A model generated the notes under the pieces. It was not told where the DNA came from. It made no database searches and saw nothing but the letters and a program-made list of their open reading frames with translations. DNA of 64,000 nucleotides from Escherichia phage FriedrichZschokke: sequence record MZ501067; one strand, given 5' to 3'. This document shows, piece after piece, positions 34,541-41,582 of the stretch (the stretch's first letter is position 1; each line of letters starts with the position of its first letter). A program made the position numbers and the translations under genes.

Positions 34541-34549
34541 ATCACCTTC

Positions 34550-34735
34550 TTAAAGCGTATTCACATAAGCTATTAATTCATTTTCTTTCTTATCAAACCG
34601 ATCAGCAAATTCTTCCTGCTGTTCGGGAGATAGCGGGCCGTATTCATCATAAAAGGTGTTTGCTTCTATATGCTCATCTAGAAGTTCATGGATAAGCTCA
34701 AACAATTTATCTTTTTGTTCTTTACTCAGACTCAT
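34550..34735 (-). CDS. Hypothetical acidic protein (61 aa)
   Basis: ORF on the early strand. Confidence 0.5.
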   Translation of the reverse strand: MSLSKEQKDKLFELIHELLDEHIEANTFYDEYGPLSPEQQEEFADRFDKKENELIAYVNTL

Positions 34736-34901
34736 ATATTAATTTCCAGGAGTTTTAAAATAATTCGCTTTTGCTTAAATATTTCCATAGTTAAATGACC
34801 AGTATCTTTTTGACCGATTCCAATGGCAAAACCTTTATTAACAGCGAGTTCAATTAAATTATCAAGCTCACGTAACACTTCGTATTGTAACTCAAAACTA
34901 T

Positions 34902-35129
34902 TCATTTTGGTTTACCTTCTTTAACGAAATCAGGATAAGGATAAAATCCTGAATAAAATCCTTCACCTTTATGATTGATGCATCCTTTATTAGAACAATA
35001 GCACCAATAATCGAAATCACAAGCCATTTCATCATTACATAAAGCAAAAACAACAGGCCATTTACACTTTTCACAATGGGCATTTTTAAGAATACTAGTT
35101 TGGCTCATAACCATGTAACCTTTAAGCAA
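34902..35129 (-). CDS. Cys-rich small protein (up to 75 aa; start uncertain)
   Basis: Multiple CxxC pairs (CEKCKW..., CYCSNKGC). Confidence 0.45.
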   Translation of the reverse strand: MLKGYMVMSQTSILKNAHCEKCKWPVVFALCNDEMACDFDYWCYCSNKGCINHKGEGFYSGFYPYPDFVKEGKPK

Positions 35130-35317
35130 TATTCTTCTACATGTTGTTTACGACCTTTCTTATCAATAAAGGTATATTCAACGAATGTTCCAATGTAGTC
35201 TTTATCTACATCATGTGGACTATTAATTGGACATTTAGTACGGCAAATGCGTTCCCATTGACGAATAATTTCCACTTTGTTTTTAGGATCAAACGGATGT
35301 GGGTAATGTACTTTCAT
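35105..35317 (-). CDS. Hypothetical protein (70 aa)
   Basis: ORF on the early strand. Confidence 0.5.
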   Translation of the reverse strand: MKVHYPHPFDPKNKVEIIRQWERICRTKCPINSPHDVDKDYIGTFVEYTFIDKKGRKQHVEEYCLKVTWL

Positions 35318-35768
35318 AATCCACCACTATTAAATCAATATCAGGAGTAAACATGTCGATTAATTTAGAAACCTTATCCCAATCGCCGCCAGCAATACCA
35401 CAACCTATGCGTGGAATGTAAATTACTGGTTTAAACAAAAGGGTTTCTGCCTGTAGATTTAATTCTATCATGCAGTTTACTAAAGCACCATAATCAAGAT
35501 TAGGACCTGGTTCGTATTGCGTATACAGGTTATAGCATATACCAAAACCATTAGGTTTATGTTTAAAAACAATAGACATATCGCCTAATTTATCACGAGA
35601 ACCGTACTCAGTAGTGGTTTTATCTATTTCTAAAATTTTGGGATAGGCTCTTGCTAATTGACCAGCTACACCTGAACCCATAGTATGAAAACAATTGCAC
35701 CCGTGCGCAATAATATTACCTTGAAGAAATAGGGCGACAATATCGCCCTTGATATATTTTACAATCAT
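35289..35768 (-). CDS. Macro-domain-like protein (predicted ADP-ribose binding/processing)
   Basis: 159 aa; GDIV...NIIAHGCNCFHTMGSGVAGQLA and later IGCGIAGGDW fit the two glycine-rich loops of macro domains (cf. DAIVNAAN...GGGGVxxAI and GxYGYP). Confidence 0.6.
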   Translation of the reverse strand: MIVKYIKGDIVALFLQGNIIAHGCNCFHTMGSGVAGQLARAYPKILEIDKTTTEYGSRDKLGDMSIVFKHKPNGFGICYNLYTQYEPGPNLDYGALVNCMIELNLQAETLLFKPVIYIPRIGCGIAGGDWDKVSKLIDMFTPDIDLIVVDYESTLPTSV

Positions 35769-36106
35769 CTAGTACTCAATCCTCGATTATAAGAATCTAC
35801 CAAACGGTCAACCATTGAATGACAAGCGGCTTTATCTTTCTCCTCCGCAACTGAACATTCTAAGGTATTCCACTTTTTAGCATATCGTTTTAACAATGTA
35901 TCATTTTTGTATCTGCTTGATTTATCTCTTTCTCCGTCTTTATATGCATATATTAATTTCTGCGCAAATTCAGCTTGGCATGCTTTATTTTTCCCGCAAT
36001 AATCCGCTGCAGTACGGTTTACATACTCTCTAATTTCAGTATATGATGTATCTGCTAACGCAGAAAATGAAATTAATCCTATACATAAAACCAAAATTTT
36101 AGTCAT
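35765..36106 (-). CDS. Secreted protein (113 aa)
   Basis: N-terminal signal peptide (MTKILVLCIGLISFSALA); several Cys. Confidence 0.55.
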   Translation of the reverse strand: MTKILVLCIGLISFSALADTSYTEIREYVNRTAADYCGKNKACQAEFAQKLIYAYKDGERDKSSRYKNDTLLKRYAKKWNTLECSVAEEKDKAACHSMVDRLVDSYNRGLSTR

Positions 36107-36644
36107 TTACTATTTCCAAAAGTTTATTATTTTTAAGGTAATTAGCCTTTTCTAGGACTTCAGAAGCATATTTAGAACCTGCTTTAACATTCCATCCCGA
36201 ATTATAAGAGGATATTGCTTTTCTTATATCGCCCTTATGTATATTTAACCAATAAGAAAGTTCAATGTACGCCCAGGAAGCTGAATTGGACCGTTTATTC
36301 AACATTCTTTTTATTTCAGCATCGGTCATATTATAACCAAGTTCCTTAACTCTTGCTCGCATAGTAGGCAAATAATTTTGGAACATTCCGTAGGCGTGAT
36401 GCTTTGGTTTAGATTTTAAATTAACTCCGCCAGAGCTTTCTTGCCATAAAATAGCAGCCATTATATGACCTAATCCGCTCTTGTGGATATTTTTATGTGT
36501 TTTATATTTTCCATCCTTAGAAAATTGTTCCCCGAATTGATACGCGTAACGCATGTTATCGAGTTGGACATTACTGAAAGTATGCTCGGAGCTATGTGCC
36601 ATCATTGAAATGGCCAATAGACCAGCGAGTAGTGCTTTTCTCAT
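36099..36644 (-). CDS. Secreted lytic transglycosylase-like protein (SLT domain)
   Basis: 181 aa; signal peptide; QESSGG...YGMFQ motif typical of the SLT catalytic region. Confidence 0.6.
   Translation of the reverse strand: MRKALLAGLLAISMMAHSSEHTFSNVQLDNMRYAYQFGEQFSKDGKYKTHKNIHKSGLGHIMAAILWQESSGGVNLKSKPKHHAYGMFQNYLPTMRARVKELGYNMTDAEIKRMLNKRSNSASWAYIELSYWLNIHKGDIRKAISSYNSGWNVKAGSKYASEVLEKANYLKNNKLLEIVND

Positions 36645-40595: not shown

Positions 40596-41563
<968 letters not shown>

Positions 41564-41582
<19 letters not shown>

What the first reader, a model, noticed from the sequence alone, without database searches (positions are those of the whole stretch)
35289..35768. Macro-domain-like protein among early genes
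The 159 aa ORF carries GDIV...NIIAHGCNCFHTMGSGVAGQLA and later IGCGIAGGDW, matching the two glycine-rich ADP-ribose-binding loops of macro domains. A phage macro domain could remove ADP-ribose marks or degrade ADP-ribose-derived molecules, for example to counter ADP-ribosylating host defences or to tune the phage's own ADP-ribosyltransferases. Function is inferred from motifs only.
Basis: partly seen in the sequence, partly recalled or inferred. Interest (0 to 1): 0.58.

Follow-up and report, generated by a model that had tools for sequence, protein, structure and literature searches.

The report
Known phage macrodomain tk.4/AdfM, anti-DarT

Summary

What I add:
- This allele is only 57% identical to T4 Tk.4, although the flanks are about 95-100% identical, which points to allele replacement.
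- The protein is not DarG-type. The catalytic Lys of DarG/TARG1 is replaced by a family-invariant Gln84, paired with Asn25. That is the catalytic arrangement of SCO6735, a standalone bacterial macrodomain shown biochemically to cleave DarT-made thymidine-ADP-ribose from DNA.
- Its "mobile loop" is short and uncharged, unlike that of SCO6735.
- Bacterial relatives are standalone genes, not DarT partners.

The most likely function is a thymidine-ADP-ribose DNA glycohydrolase that counters DarT2. This is an ordinary, already explained gene, and no biochemistry exists for this clade.

The parts
35289..35768 (-). tk.4 / adfM orthologue: a 159-aa single-domain macrodomain protein
35661..35705 (-). 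Residues H22-G36 (HGCNCFHTMGSGVAG): the catalytic-side motif H-G-C-N plus the first Gly-rich (phosphate-binding) loop. H22, G23, N25, C26, G33 and A35 are invariant in 59 family members.
   Evidence: Invariant columns. hhalign to SCO6735 maps H22-G23-C24-N25 onto H24-V25-C26-N27. SCO6735 Asn27 and the Val25 backbone are catalytically important (PMC9411070).
35490..35531 (-). Residues N80-Y93 (NLYTQYEPGPNLDY). The invariant Gln84 (codon 35517-35519) sits at the position of the catalytic Lys of DarG (K80) and TARG1 (K84), and of the essential Gln85 of SCO6735. It is followed by a short, uncharged 'mobile loop' of 8 residues.
   Evidence: Profile alignments. Loop lengths and charges. SCO6735 Q85A is inactive.
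35379..35414 (-). Residues P119-W130 (PRIGCGIAGGDW): the second Gly-rich (substrate-binding) loop. G124 corresponds to SCO6735 Gly128. A126 occupies the position of TARG1 Asp125.
35284..35730 (-). Divergent allele segment. Nucleotide identity to T4 falls to 45-83% here, while the flanking vs, vs.1, regB and tk.3 are about 95-100% identical.
   Evidence: Pairwise alignment and 60-nt sliding identity.
35731..35749 (-). GC-rich hairpin AGGGCGATATTGTCGCCCT within codons 7-13 of tk.4, followed by a T-rich tail. It is identical in T4. The break in identity to T4 begins just 3' of it.
   Evidence: Terminator-like hit. Annotated as a rho-independent terminator in phage ECML-123-2. Folded (8-bp stem; z=-1.56 for the 76-nt context, so not significant on its own).
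35765..36106 (-). vs (valyl-tRNA synthetase modifier), the upstream neighbour. Its stop codon overlaps the tk.4 start as ATGA.
35105..35317 (-). tk.3 (DUF7202), the downstream neighbour. Its start overlaps the 3' end of tk.4 by 29 nt.

Best explanation
The ORF is the tk.4 (adfM) gene of a T4-like phage. It encodes a small, single-domain macrodomain hydrolase of the TARG1-like (ALC1-like) class.

Proposed mechanism:
1. During infection the host DarT2 toxin transfers ADP-ribose from NAD+ onto thymidines in single-stranded phage DNA and blocks replication.
2. Tk.4 binds the ADP-ribose between its two glycine-rich loops.
3. Gln84, held in place by Asn25, positions the distal ribose, and a backbone-positioned water cleaves the thymine-ribose N-glycosidic bond. 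This is the SCO6735-type, lysine-independent mechanism.
4. Free ADP-ribose is released and the DNA is restored.

Shown here: the macro fold, the class, orthology to T4 tk.4, and conservation of the Gln/Asn catalytic arrangement.
Shown by others: T4 tk.4 is required on DarTG2 hosts, and SCO6735 hydrolyses dT-ADPr.
Inferred: that this 57%-identical allele does the same, and that it acts by hydrolysis.
For: Macro domain:
- Pfam above threshold.
- AF2 pLDDT 94.4.
- Foldseek probability 1.0.

Orthology:
- The window is 100% identical to Bas39 over 2.2 kb.
- The gene lies between vs and tk.3, as T4 tk.4 does.
- 57% identity over the full length, E=1e-69.

Function of the orthologue:
- T4 tk.4 was the only significant HIDEN-SEQ hit on a DarTG2 host, and a clean knockout became sensitive.
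- T4 lacking adfA and adfN stays DarTG2-resistant, and the T-even phages studied are described as DarTG2-resistant.

Mechanism:
- Three independent profile alignments put the invariant Q84 at the DarG K80 / TARG1 K84 / SCO6735 Q85 position, and N25 at SCO6735 N27.
- SCO6735 cleaves DarT-made dT-ADPr faster than DarG or TARG1 and rescues E. coli from DarT. Its Q85A mutant is dead and N27S nearly dead.
- H22, G23, N25, C26, D49, N80, Y82, Q84, G122, G124 and W130 are invariant in 59 diverse members, as expected for an enzyme.

Negative control: T5, which is DarTG2-sensitive, has no Tk.4-type or DarG-type macrodomain anywhere in its genome.
Against: - No member of the Tk.4 clade has been assayed biochemically. 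The T4 evidence is genetic and comes from a preprint.
- The window allele is only 57% identical to the tested T4 allele. The two differ in the second loop: IGCGIAGGDW here against IGAGIGKGNW in T4.
- The mobile loop, which in SCO6735 carries Lys89 (important for DNA activity), is 5-6 residues shorter here and has no Lys or Arg. DNA engagement must therefore differ.
- Tk.4 is about equally distant from Bt_1257/SCO6735, TARG1, Poa1p and DarG, so substrate specificity cannot be read from homology alone.
- Bacterial relatives are not linked to DarT.
Confidence: 0.72

Rival explanations
1. It processes small ADP-ribose derivatives rather than DNA adducts: ADP-ribose-1''-phosphate (the 'A1pp phosphatase' role behind the database name 'phosphatase', as for yeast Poa1p), O-acetyl-ADP-ribose, or ADP-ribose-based immune signals such as Thoeris products.
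Against: The 'phosphatase' label derives from the old SMART A1pp domain name, not from an assay. T4 tk.4 has a specific DarTG2 phenotype. From general knowledge, T4 RNA repair by Pnk and Rnl1 does not produce the 2'-phosphate intermediates that yield Appr>p. No KptA, 2H or sirtuin partner lies nearby in the window.
Confidence: 0.1
2. It neutralises DarT2 mainly by binding the toxin or its product rather than by catalysis (stoichiometric inhibition).
For: Catalytically dead SCO6735 Q85A, DarG K80A and TARG1 K84A all still inhibit DarT in vitro, and SCO6735 does so most strongly (PMC9411070).
Against: The active-site constellation is invariant across phage and free-living bacterial members, which argues for selection on catalysis. 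The protein lacks the C-terminal DarT-binding domain of DarG: it is a 159-aa single domain, scoring 27.8 bits against the 250-bit NCBIfam DarG cut-off.
Confidence: 0.08
3. It reverses protein ADP-ribosylation: either marks placed by the phage's own Alt/ModA/ModB enzymes or marks placed by host toxins on phage or host proteins.
For: SCO6735 and TARG1 also remove Glu/Asp-linked ADP-ribose from proteins. T4-like phages encode three ADP-ribosyltransferases (general knowledge).
Against: From general knowledge, Alt, ModA and ModB modify arginine, and TARG1-like macrodomains are not known to cleave Arg-ADPr. The known Arg-specific macrodomain, MavL, is cited only in a reference list and was not compared here. 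SCO6735 strongly prefers DNA over protein substrate. No ART gene is near tk.4, and tk.4 insertions were depleted only on the DarTG2 host.
Confidence: 0.06
4. Its main target is ADP-ribosylated RNA (uracil-ADPr or phosphate-linked ADPr) rather than DNA.
For: TARG1, DarG and SCO6735 all reverse uracil-ADPr on ssRNA (PMC13036486).
Against: No bacterial uracil-ADP-ribosylating anti-phage toxin is documented in the papers read. The DarTG2 phenotype already accounts for retention of the gene.
Confidence: 0.04

Closest known systems
Phage T4 Tk.4 = AdfM (anti-DarT factor Macrodomain), HIDEN-SEQ preprint 10.1101/2025.11.20.689424
   Same: Same locus (vs - tk.4 - tk.3). Same length class (159 against 155 aa). 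57% identity over the full length. Same invariant H/N/Q/G residues.
   Different: A deeply diverged allele in near-identical flanks. The second loop is IGCGIAGGDW, which is the family consensus, against IGAGIGKGNW in T4. The C-terminus is 4 aa longer and overlaps tk.3 by 29 nt. This allele has not been tested experimentally.
SCO6735 (S. coelicolor, PDB 5E3B) / Bt_1257 (PDB 2FG1, 2AFC): standalone thymidine-ADPr DNA hydrolases of the ALC1-like class (PMC9411070)
   Different: Only about 26-29% identity. The mobile loop is 8 residues with no Lys or Arg, against 13-14 residues with Lys89. It is encoded by a phage.
DarG antitoxin macrodomain (PDB 5M3I, 5M31) and the chimallivirus PhiKZ gp104, also named 'AdfM' (PMC13309987)
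   Different: A different lineage. PhiKZ gp104 scores 133 bits on the PADLOC DarG model, while the window protein scores 27.7. BLASTP between the two gives only E=0.001 over 33 residues. The FPTK catalytic Lys is replaced by YTQ. There is no C-terminal DarT-binding domain.
Human TARG1/OARD1 (PDB 4J5S)
   Same: Top Foldseek hit. Same mobile-loop length (8 residues). It has His at the H22 position. TARG1 also cleaves T-ADPr and U-ADPr.
   Different: Both residues of the Lys84/Asp125 dyad are absent: Gln84 and Ala126 here.
Yeast Poa1p ADP-ribose-1''-phosphate phosphatase (PDB 6LFQ)
   Different: The middle of the protein aligns poorly by sequence. Poa1p acts on a small molecule. No evidence connects tk.4 to tRNA-splicing by-products.

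Membership tests
Macro domain superfamily (Pfam PF01661) | Profile score above the curated threshold, over essentially the whole domain | tested here: met
   33.1 bits against a gathering score of 22, model positions 2-117 of 118. T4 Tk.4 scores 27.7 bits.
Macro domain superfamily (Pfam PF01661) | Three-layer alpha/beta/alpha macro fold with two Gly-rich loops lining the ADP-ribose cleft | tested here: met
Macro domain superfamily (Pfam PF01661) | Binds ADP-ribose | not testable with these tools
   Needs ITC, thermal shift or co-crystallisation.
T4 tk.4 / AdfM orthologous group | Conserved position between vs and tk.3 in a Tevenvirinae genome | tested here: met
   The flanks are 95-100% identical to T4.
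T4 tk.4 / AdfM orthologous group | Full-length sequence homology to T4 Tk.4 | tested here: met
   57% identity, 155 of 155 residues aligned, no gaps, E=1e-69.
T4 tk.4 / AdfM orthologous group | Required for growth on DarTG2-expressing hosts | not testable with these tools
   Shown only for the T4 allele.
ALC1-like / TARG1-like macrodomain class | Closest structural neighbours are TARG1, DarG, SCO6735/Bt_1257 and Poa1p rather than MacroD, macroH2A or PARG types | tested here: met
SCO6735/Bt_1257 subclass (Gln-type T-ADPr hydrolases) | Gln at the position of the DarG/TARG1 catalytic Lys, locked by the conserved Asn (SCO6735 Gln85/Asn27) | tested here: met
   Q84 and N25 are invariant in 59 of 59 members. 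Alignment.
SCO6735/Bt_1257 subclass (Gln-type T-ADPr hydrolases) | Mobile loop about 5 residues longer than in DarG/TARG1, carrying Lys89 (stated in PMC9411070 to be characteristic of the subclass) | tested here: not met
   The loop Q84-YEPGPNLD-Y93 has 8 residues and no Lys or Arg. SCO6735 has 13 and Bt_1257 has 14. Other Tk.4-family members have 8 or 11.
SCO6735/Bt_1257 subclass (Gln-type T-ADPr hydrolases) | Hydrolyses thymidine-linked ADP-ribose on ssDNA | not testable with these tools
   Requires a gel-shift assay on a DarT-modified oligonucleotide.
DarG antitoxin (type II TA, NCBIfam NF048014) | Catalytic Lys in the FPTK motif (K80) | tested here: not met
   YTQ in place of PTK.
DarG antitoxin (type II TA, NCBIfam NF048014) | Two-domain protein with a C-terminal DarT-binding domain, scoring above the model cut-off | tested here: not met
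   159-aa single domain. 27.8 bits against a cut-off of 250, matching only positions 2-142 of 338. PADLOC DarG 27.7 bits.
DarG antitoxin (type II TA, NCBIfam NF048014) | Encoded next to a DarT toxin gene | tested here: not met
   tblastn with P. aeruginosa DarT2 found nothing in the window or within 6 kb of 80 bacterial relatives. This was a single-sequence query, so very distant DarTs could be missed.
TARG1 | Lys84/Asp125 catalytic dyad | tested here: not met
   Q84 and A126 at those positions.
Poa1p-like Appr1p phosphatase | HxCNC motif, including the His (Poa1p H23) probed by mutation | tested here: met
   H22-G-C-N-C aligns with Poa1p IHSCNC. H23A entry 6LFS.
Poa1p-like Appr1p phosphatase | ADP-ribose-1''-phosphate phosphatase activity | not testable with these tools
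   No assay possible. The Poa1p structure paper is not in the library.

The most novel reading that the evidence does not exclude
T-even phages carry at least two deeply diverged tk.4/adfM allele lineages, swapped by recombination into otherwise near-identical genomes. These could be functionally specialised. They might be tuned to different DarT2 variants, to additional thymine/uracil-ADP-ribosylating toxins, or to escape host factors that sense or inhibit AdfM. In that reading the Tk.4 clade, with its Gln active site but short uncharged mobile loop, would engage nucleic acid differently from SCO6735 and DarG, possibly with a broader or different substrate range such as RNA U-ADPr.
Probability: 0.25. 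Interest if true: 0.45.

Novelty: already known. Interest (0 to 1): 0.2.

Why it matters
DarTG systems are a widespread anti-phage defence, and phage enzymes that erase the DNA mark decide host range. That is relevant to phage therapy cocktails built on T4-like phages. The gene and its role are already described. Two small points here could guide biochemistry. First, two unrelated macrodomain lineages now share the name AdfM: DarG-derived, Lys-type in PhiKZ, and Tk.4, SCO6735-like, Gln-type in T-even phages. Second, the T-even gene exists as strongly diverged alleles in identical genomic backgrounds. That offers a natural experiment on the specificity of counter-defence.

Tried and rejected
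1. A compensating Lys in T4. I considered whether Lys127 of the T4 allele, in the second loop, could replace the missing catalytic Lys and make the T4 and window alleles mechanistically different. I rejected this: position 127 is K, G or N even among close T4-type alleles, and G in 56 of 59 family members.

2. A plain MAFFT alignment of Tk.4 with DarG sequences put Tyr82, not Gln84, opposite the DarG Lys. I discarded it in favour of three concordant profile alignments.

3. DarT next to bacterial relatives. I tested whether Tk.4 might be an 'orphan antitoxin': there were no DarT hits and no neighbour conserved across phyla.

4. T5 ORF T5.105, annotated 'Sir2', might have been a hidden macrodomain. 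It is a HAD_SAK_2 domain.

5. The hairpin inside the 5' end of tk.4 as a real terminator. It is only a consensus match, and its fold z-score of -1.56 is not significant. I left it as an observation.

6. The promoter scan found fewer sigma-70-like sites than shuffled sequence (23 against 28), so it gives no evidence on timing of expression. 'Early gene' rests on general knowledge of T4, not on a test here.

7. Papers not held in the library: the Poa1p structure paper and LeRoux et al. 2022.

Full report
**Observation.** Its ATG overlaps the stop of the upstream gene as ATGA, and a GAGGA ribosome-binding site precedes it.

The macrodomain assignment is firm:
- Pfam Macro scores 33.1 bits (gathering score 22) across 116 of 118 model positions.
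- PHROG 335 matches at 1e-71.
- An AlphaFold2 model built on 59 homologues has mean pLDDT 94.4 and pTM 0.89.
- Foldseek finds TARG1, Poa1p, Bt_1257 and DarG at probability 1.0.

**What the gene is.** The region is 100% identical over 2.2 kb to Escherichia phage FriedrichMiescher (BASEL Bas39, Tequatrovirus). It is at least 95% identical in about 450 other T4-like genomes.

Gene order is tk - three small ORFs - tk.3 - this ORF - vs - vs.1 - regB. In T4 the gene between tk.3 and vs is tk.4, annotated 'phosphatase; contains A1pp phosphatase motif'. The ORF is therefore the tk.4 orthologue.

tk.4 orthologues were reported as A1pp (macro) domain proteins in 2006 (PMC1524935). Near-identical copies are annotated 'macro domain protein', 'Poa1p-like' or 'phosphatase'. 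Tk.4 protein has been detected in T2-infected cells. Macro domains occur in about 41% of myoviruses (PMC9503650).

**What is known about its function.**
- A 2025 preprint (10.1101/2025.11.20.689424) ran a T4 transposon library on a DarTG2 host. tk.4 was the single significant hit.
- A clean tk.4 knockout made T4 DarTG2-sensitive. The gene was renamed adfM, with hydrolysis of DNA-ADP-ribose proposed but not assayed.
- This fits earlier work: T4 lacking adfA and adfN remains DarTG2-resistant, and the T-even phages studied are described as DarTG2-resistant. Bas39 was in that collection, but no explicit DarTG2 data for it are cited (PMC11257639).
- Independently, a chimallivirus protein, PhiKZ gp104, was also named AdfM. 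It was shown in vitro to remove DarT2 ADP-ribose from ssDNA (PMC13309987).

**How this copy relates to those.**

*Allele divergence.* The protein is only 57% identical to T4 Tk.4. The flanking vs, vs.1, regB and most of tk.3 are 95-100% identical at the nucleotide level. Identity falls to 45-70% between about 35284 and 35630. This is an allele replacement. Among phage records, 318 carry the window-type allele at 90% identity or more. 224 carry the T4 type at 90% or more, and a further 159 lie at 80-90% to T4. The window allele matches the family consensus at every conserved position. The T4 type is the outlier in the second loop.

*Lineage.* The protein is not of the DarG lineage. PhiKZ gp104 scores 133 bits on the PADLOC DarG model and 1e-24 to Mtb DarG. 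The window protein scores 27.7 bits, and the two 'AdfM' proteins barely align to each other.

*Active site.* Three independent profile alignments agree that the catalytic Lys of DarG (K80, FPTK) and TARG1 (K84) is replaced here by Gln84 in the motif N-L-Y-T-Q. The alignments are hhalign against a DarG set, hhalign against TARG1 and SCO6735, and hmmsearch against PDB. They also show that TARG1 Asp125 corresponds to Ala126. Gln84 is invariant in 59 of 59 diverse family members. So are H22, G23, N25, C26, D49, N80, Y82, P119, G122, G124 and W130.

**Why the missing lysine is not a problem.** PMC9411070 characterised SCO6735, a standalone Streptomyces macrodomain that is 54% identical to Bt_1257.
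- It lacks the Lys/Asp residues and has Gln85 at that position.
- It nevertheless hydrolyses DarT-made thymidine-ADP-ribose on ssDNA faster than DarG or TARG1.
- It ignores guanosine-ADPr and rescues E. coli from DarT.
- Q85A is dead and N27S nearly dead.
- The proposed mechanism uses a water positioned by the Val25 backbone, with Gln85 (locked by Asn27) holding the distal ribose.

**Where it differs from SCO6735.** That paper describes a 'mobile loop' about 5 residues longer than in DarG/TARG1 as characteristic of the subclass. The loop carries Lys89, whose mutation reduces DNA activity. In the window protein the loop (Q84-YEPGPNLD-Y93) has 8 residues and no Lys or Arg. SCO6735 has 13 and Bt_1257 has 14. 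Other Tk.4-family members have 8 or 11. By HMM score, Tk.4 is roughly equidistant from Bt_1257 (72.6 bits), TARG1 (62.9), Poa1p (61.2), SCO6735 (60.2) and DarG (48.1). I therefore treat Tk.4 as its own subclade of the TARG1-like class. It has an SCO6735-type catalytic centre but is not a member of the SCO6735 subclass proper.

**Origin.** More than 500 bacterial genomes encode 33-44%-identical, roughly 150-aa relatives with the same H/N/Q motifs. None of the 80 loci fetched has a DarT2 homologue within 6 kb (a single-query tblastn). No neighbour is conserved across phyla. The clade therefore looks like a standalone housekeeping-type macrodomain taken up by phages, not an orphaned DarG antitoxin.

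**Negative control.** T5 is DarTG2-sensitive. It has no Tk.4-type or DarG-type macrodomain in its whole genome, and its 'Sir2-like' T5.105 is a HAD domain. This is one genome only, so the support is weak.

**Rivals.**
- Small-molecule ADPr-derivative hydrolysis is the source of the 'phosphatase' label. It cannot be excluded biochemically, but it has no supporting context or phenotype.
- Catalysis-independent DarT inhibition is plausible as an additional effect, because dead SCO6735 still inhibits DarT. It does not explain the invariant active site.
- Reversal of the phage's own Arg-specific ADP-ribosylation is unlikely for this macrodomain class.
- RNA uracil-ADPr reversal is possible in vitro for this class, but no bacterial toxin making that mark appeared in the papers I read.

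**Verdict.** However, this is the known gene tk.4/adfM in a published phage genome. No enzyme assay exists for any Tk.4-clade protein, and the allele present here has not been tested. My only contributions beyond the literature I read are the reassignment to a Gln-type, SCO6735-like mechanism, the short-loop difference, the two-lineage 'AdfM' naming issue and the allele replacement. Interest is low.

Noticed in passing
window 35731-35749 (minus strand): An 8-bp GC-rich hairpin with a T-rich tail lies inside codons 7-13 of tk.4 and is identical in T4. One deposited genome annotates it as a rho-independent terminator. The break in identity to T4 starts immediately 3' of it, so it may mark a recombination junction or attenuate read-through from vs.
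   Followed up: partly
window 35284-35730 compared with T4 (L002 5923-6390): tk.4 is an allele-replacement hotspot: 45-83% nucleotide identity to T4 inside the gene against 95-100% in the flanks. At least three allele groups circulate among T-even phages: window type (318 records at >=90% identity), T4 type (224 at >=90%), and an intermediate group (159 records at 80-90% to T4).
   Followed up: partly
window 34541-35104: The tk.1/tk.2 interval also differs from T4; only 181 nt align, at 68%. Here it holds three small ORFs, one of which (34902-35129) is a Pfam 'Phage zinc binding domain' protein.
   Followed up: partly
window 35289-35317: The 3' end of tk.4 overlaps the tk.3 start by 29 nt, because of a 12-13-nt deletion relative to T4. 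In T4 the stop and start overlap only as ATGA. The last 4-5 residues have pLDDT below 50.
   Followed up: no
window 41127-41582 (minus strand): A NUDIX hydrolase (Pfam E=1e-13) lies just beyond the endolysin gene, about 5.4 kb from tk.4. By position it is the T4 e.1/NudE orthologue. From general knowledge, T4 NudE hydrolyses ADP-ribose among other substrates, so it could dispose of the ADP-ribose that Tk.4 releases.
   Followed up: no
literature; PhiKZ gp104 compared with window 35289-35768: Two unrelated macrodomain lineages now share the name AdfM. One is DarG-like and Lys-type (PhiKZ gp104; 133 bits on the DarG model). The other is the Tk.4 clade, Gln-type (27.7 bits).
   Followed up: yes
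loci L003-L082 (bacterial genomes): Tk.4-family macrodomains are widespread as standalone ~150-aa genes in Rhodobacteraceae, Desulfobacterales, Verrucomicrobiota, Hyphomicrobiaceae and others. They have no DarT neighbour and no gene context conserved across phyla. Their cellular role is unknown.
   Followed up: partly
window 36099-36644 (minus strand): vs.1 encodes a protein with what looks like an N-terminal signal sequence (read by eye, not tested) and a weak SLT lytic-transglycosylase domain (Pfam E=1.4e-5). It sits in the same operon-like run as tk.4.
   Followed up: no
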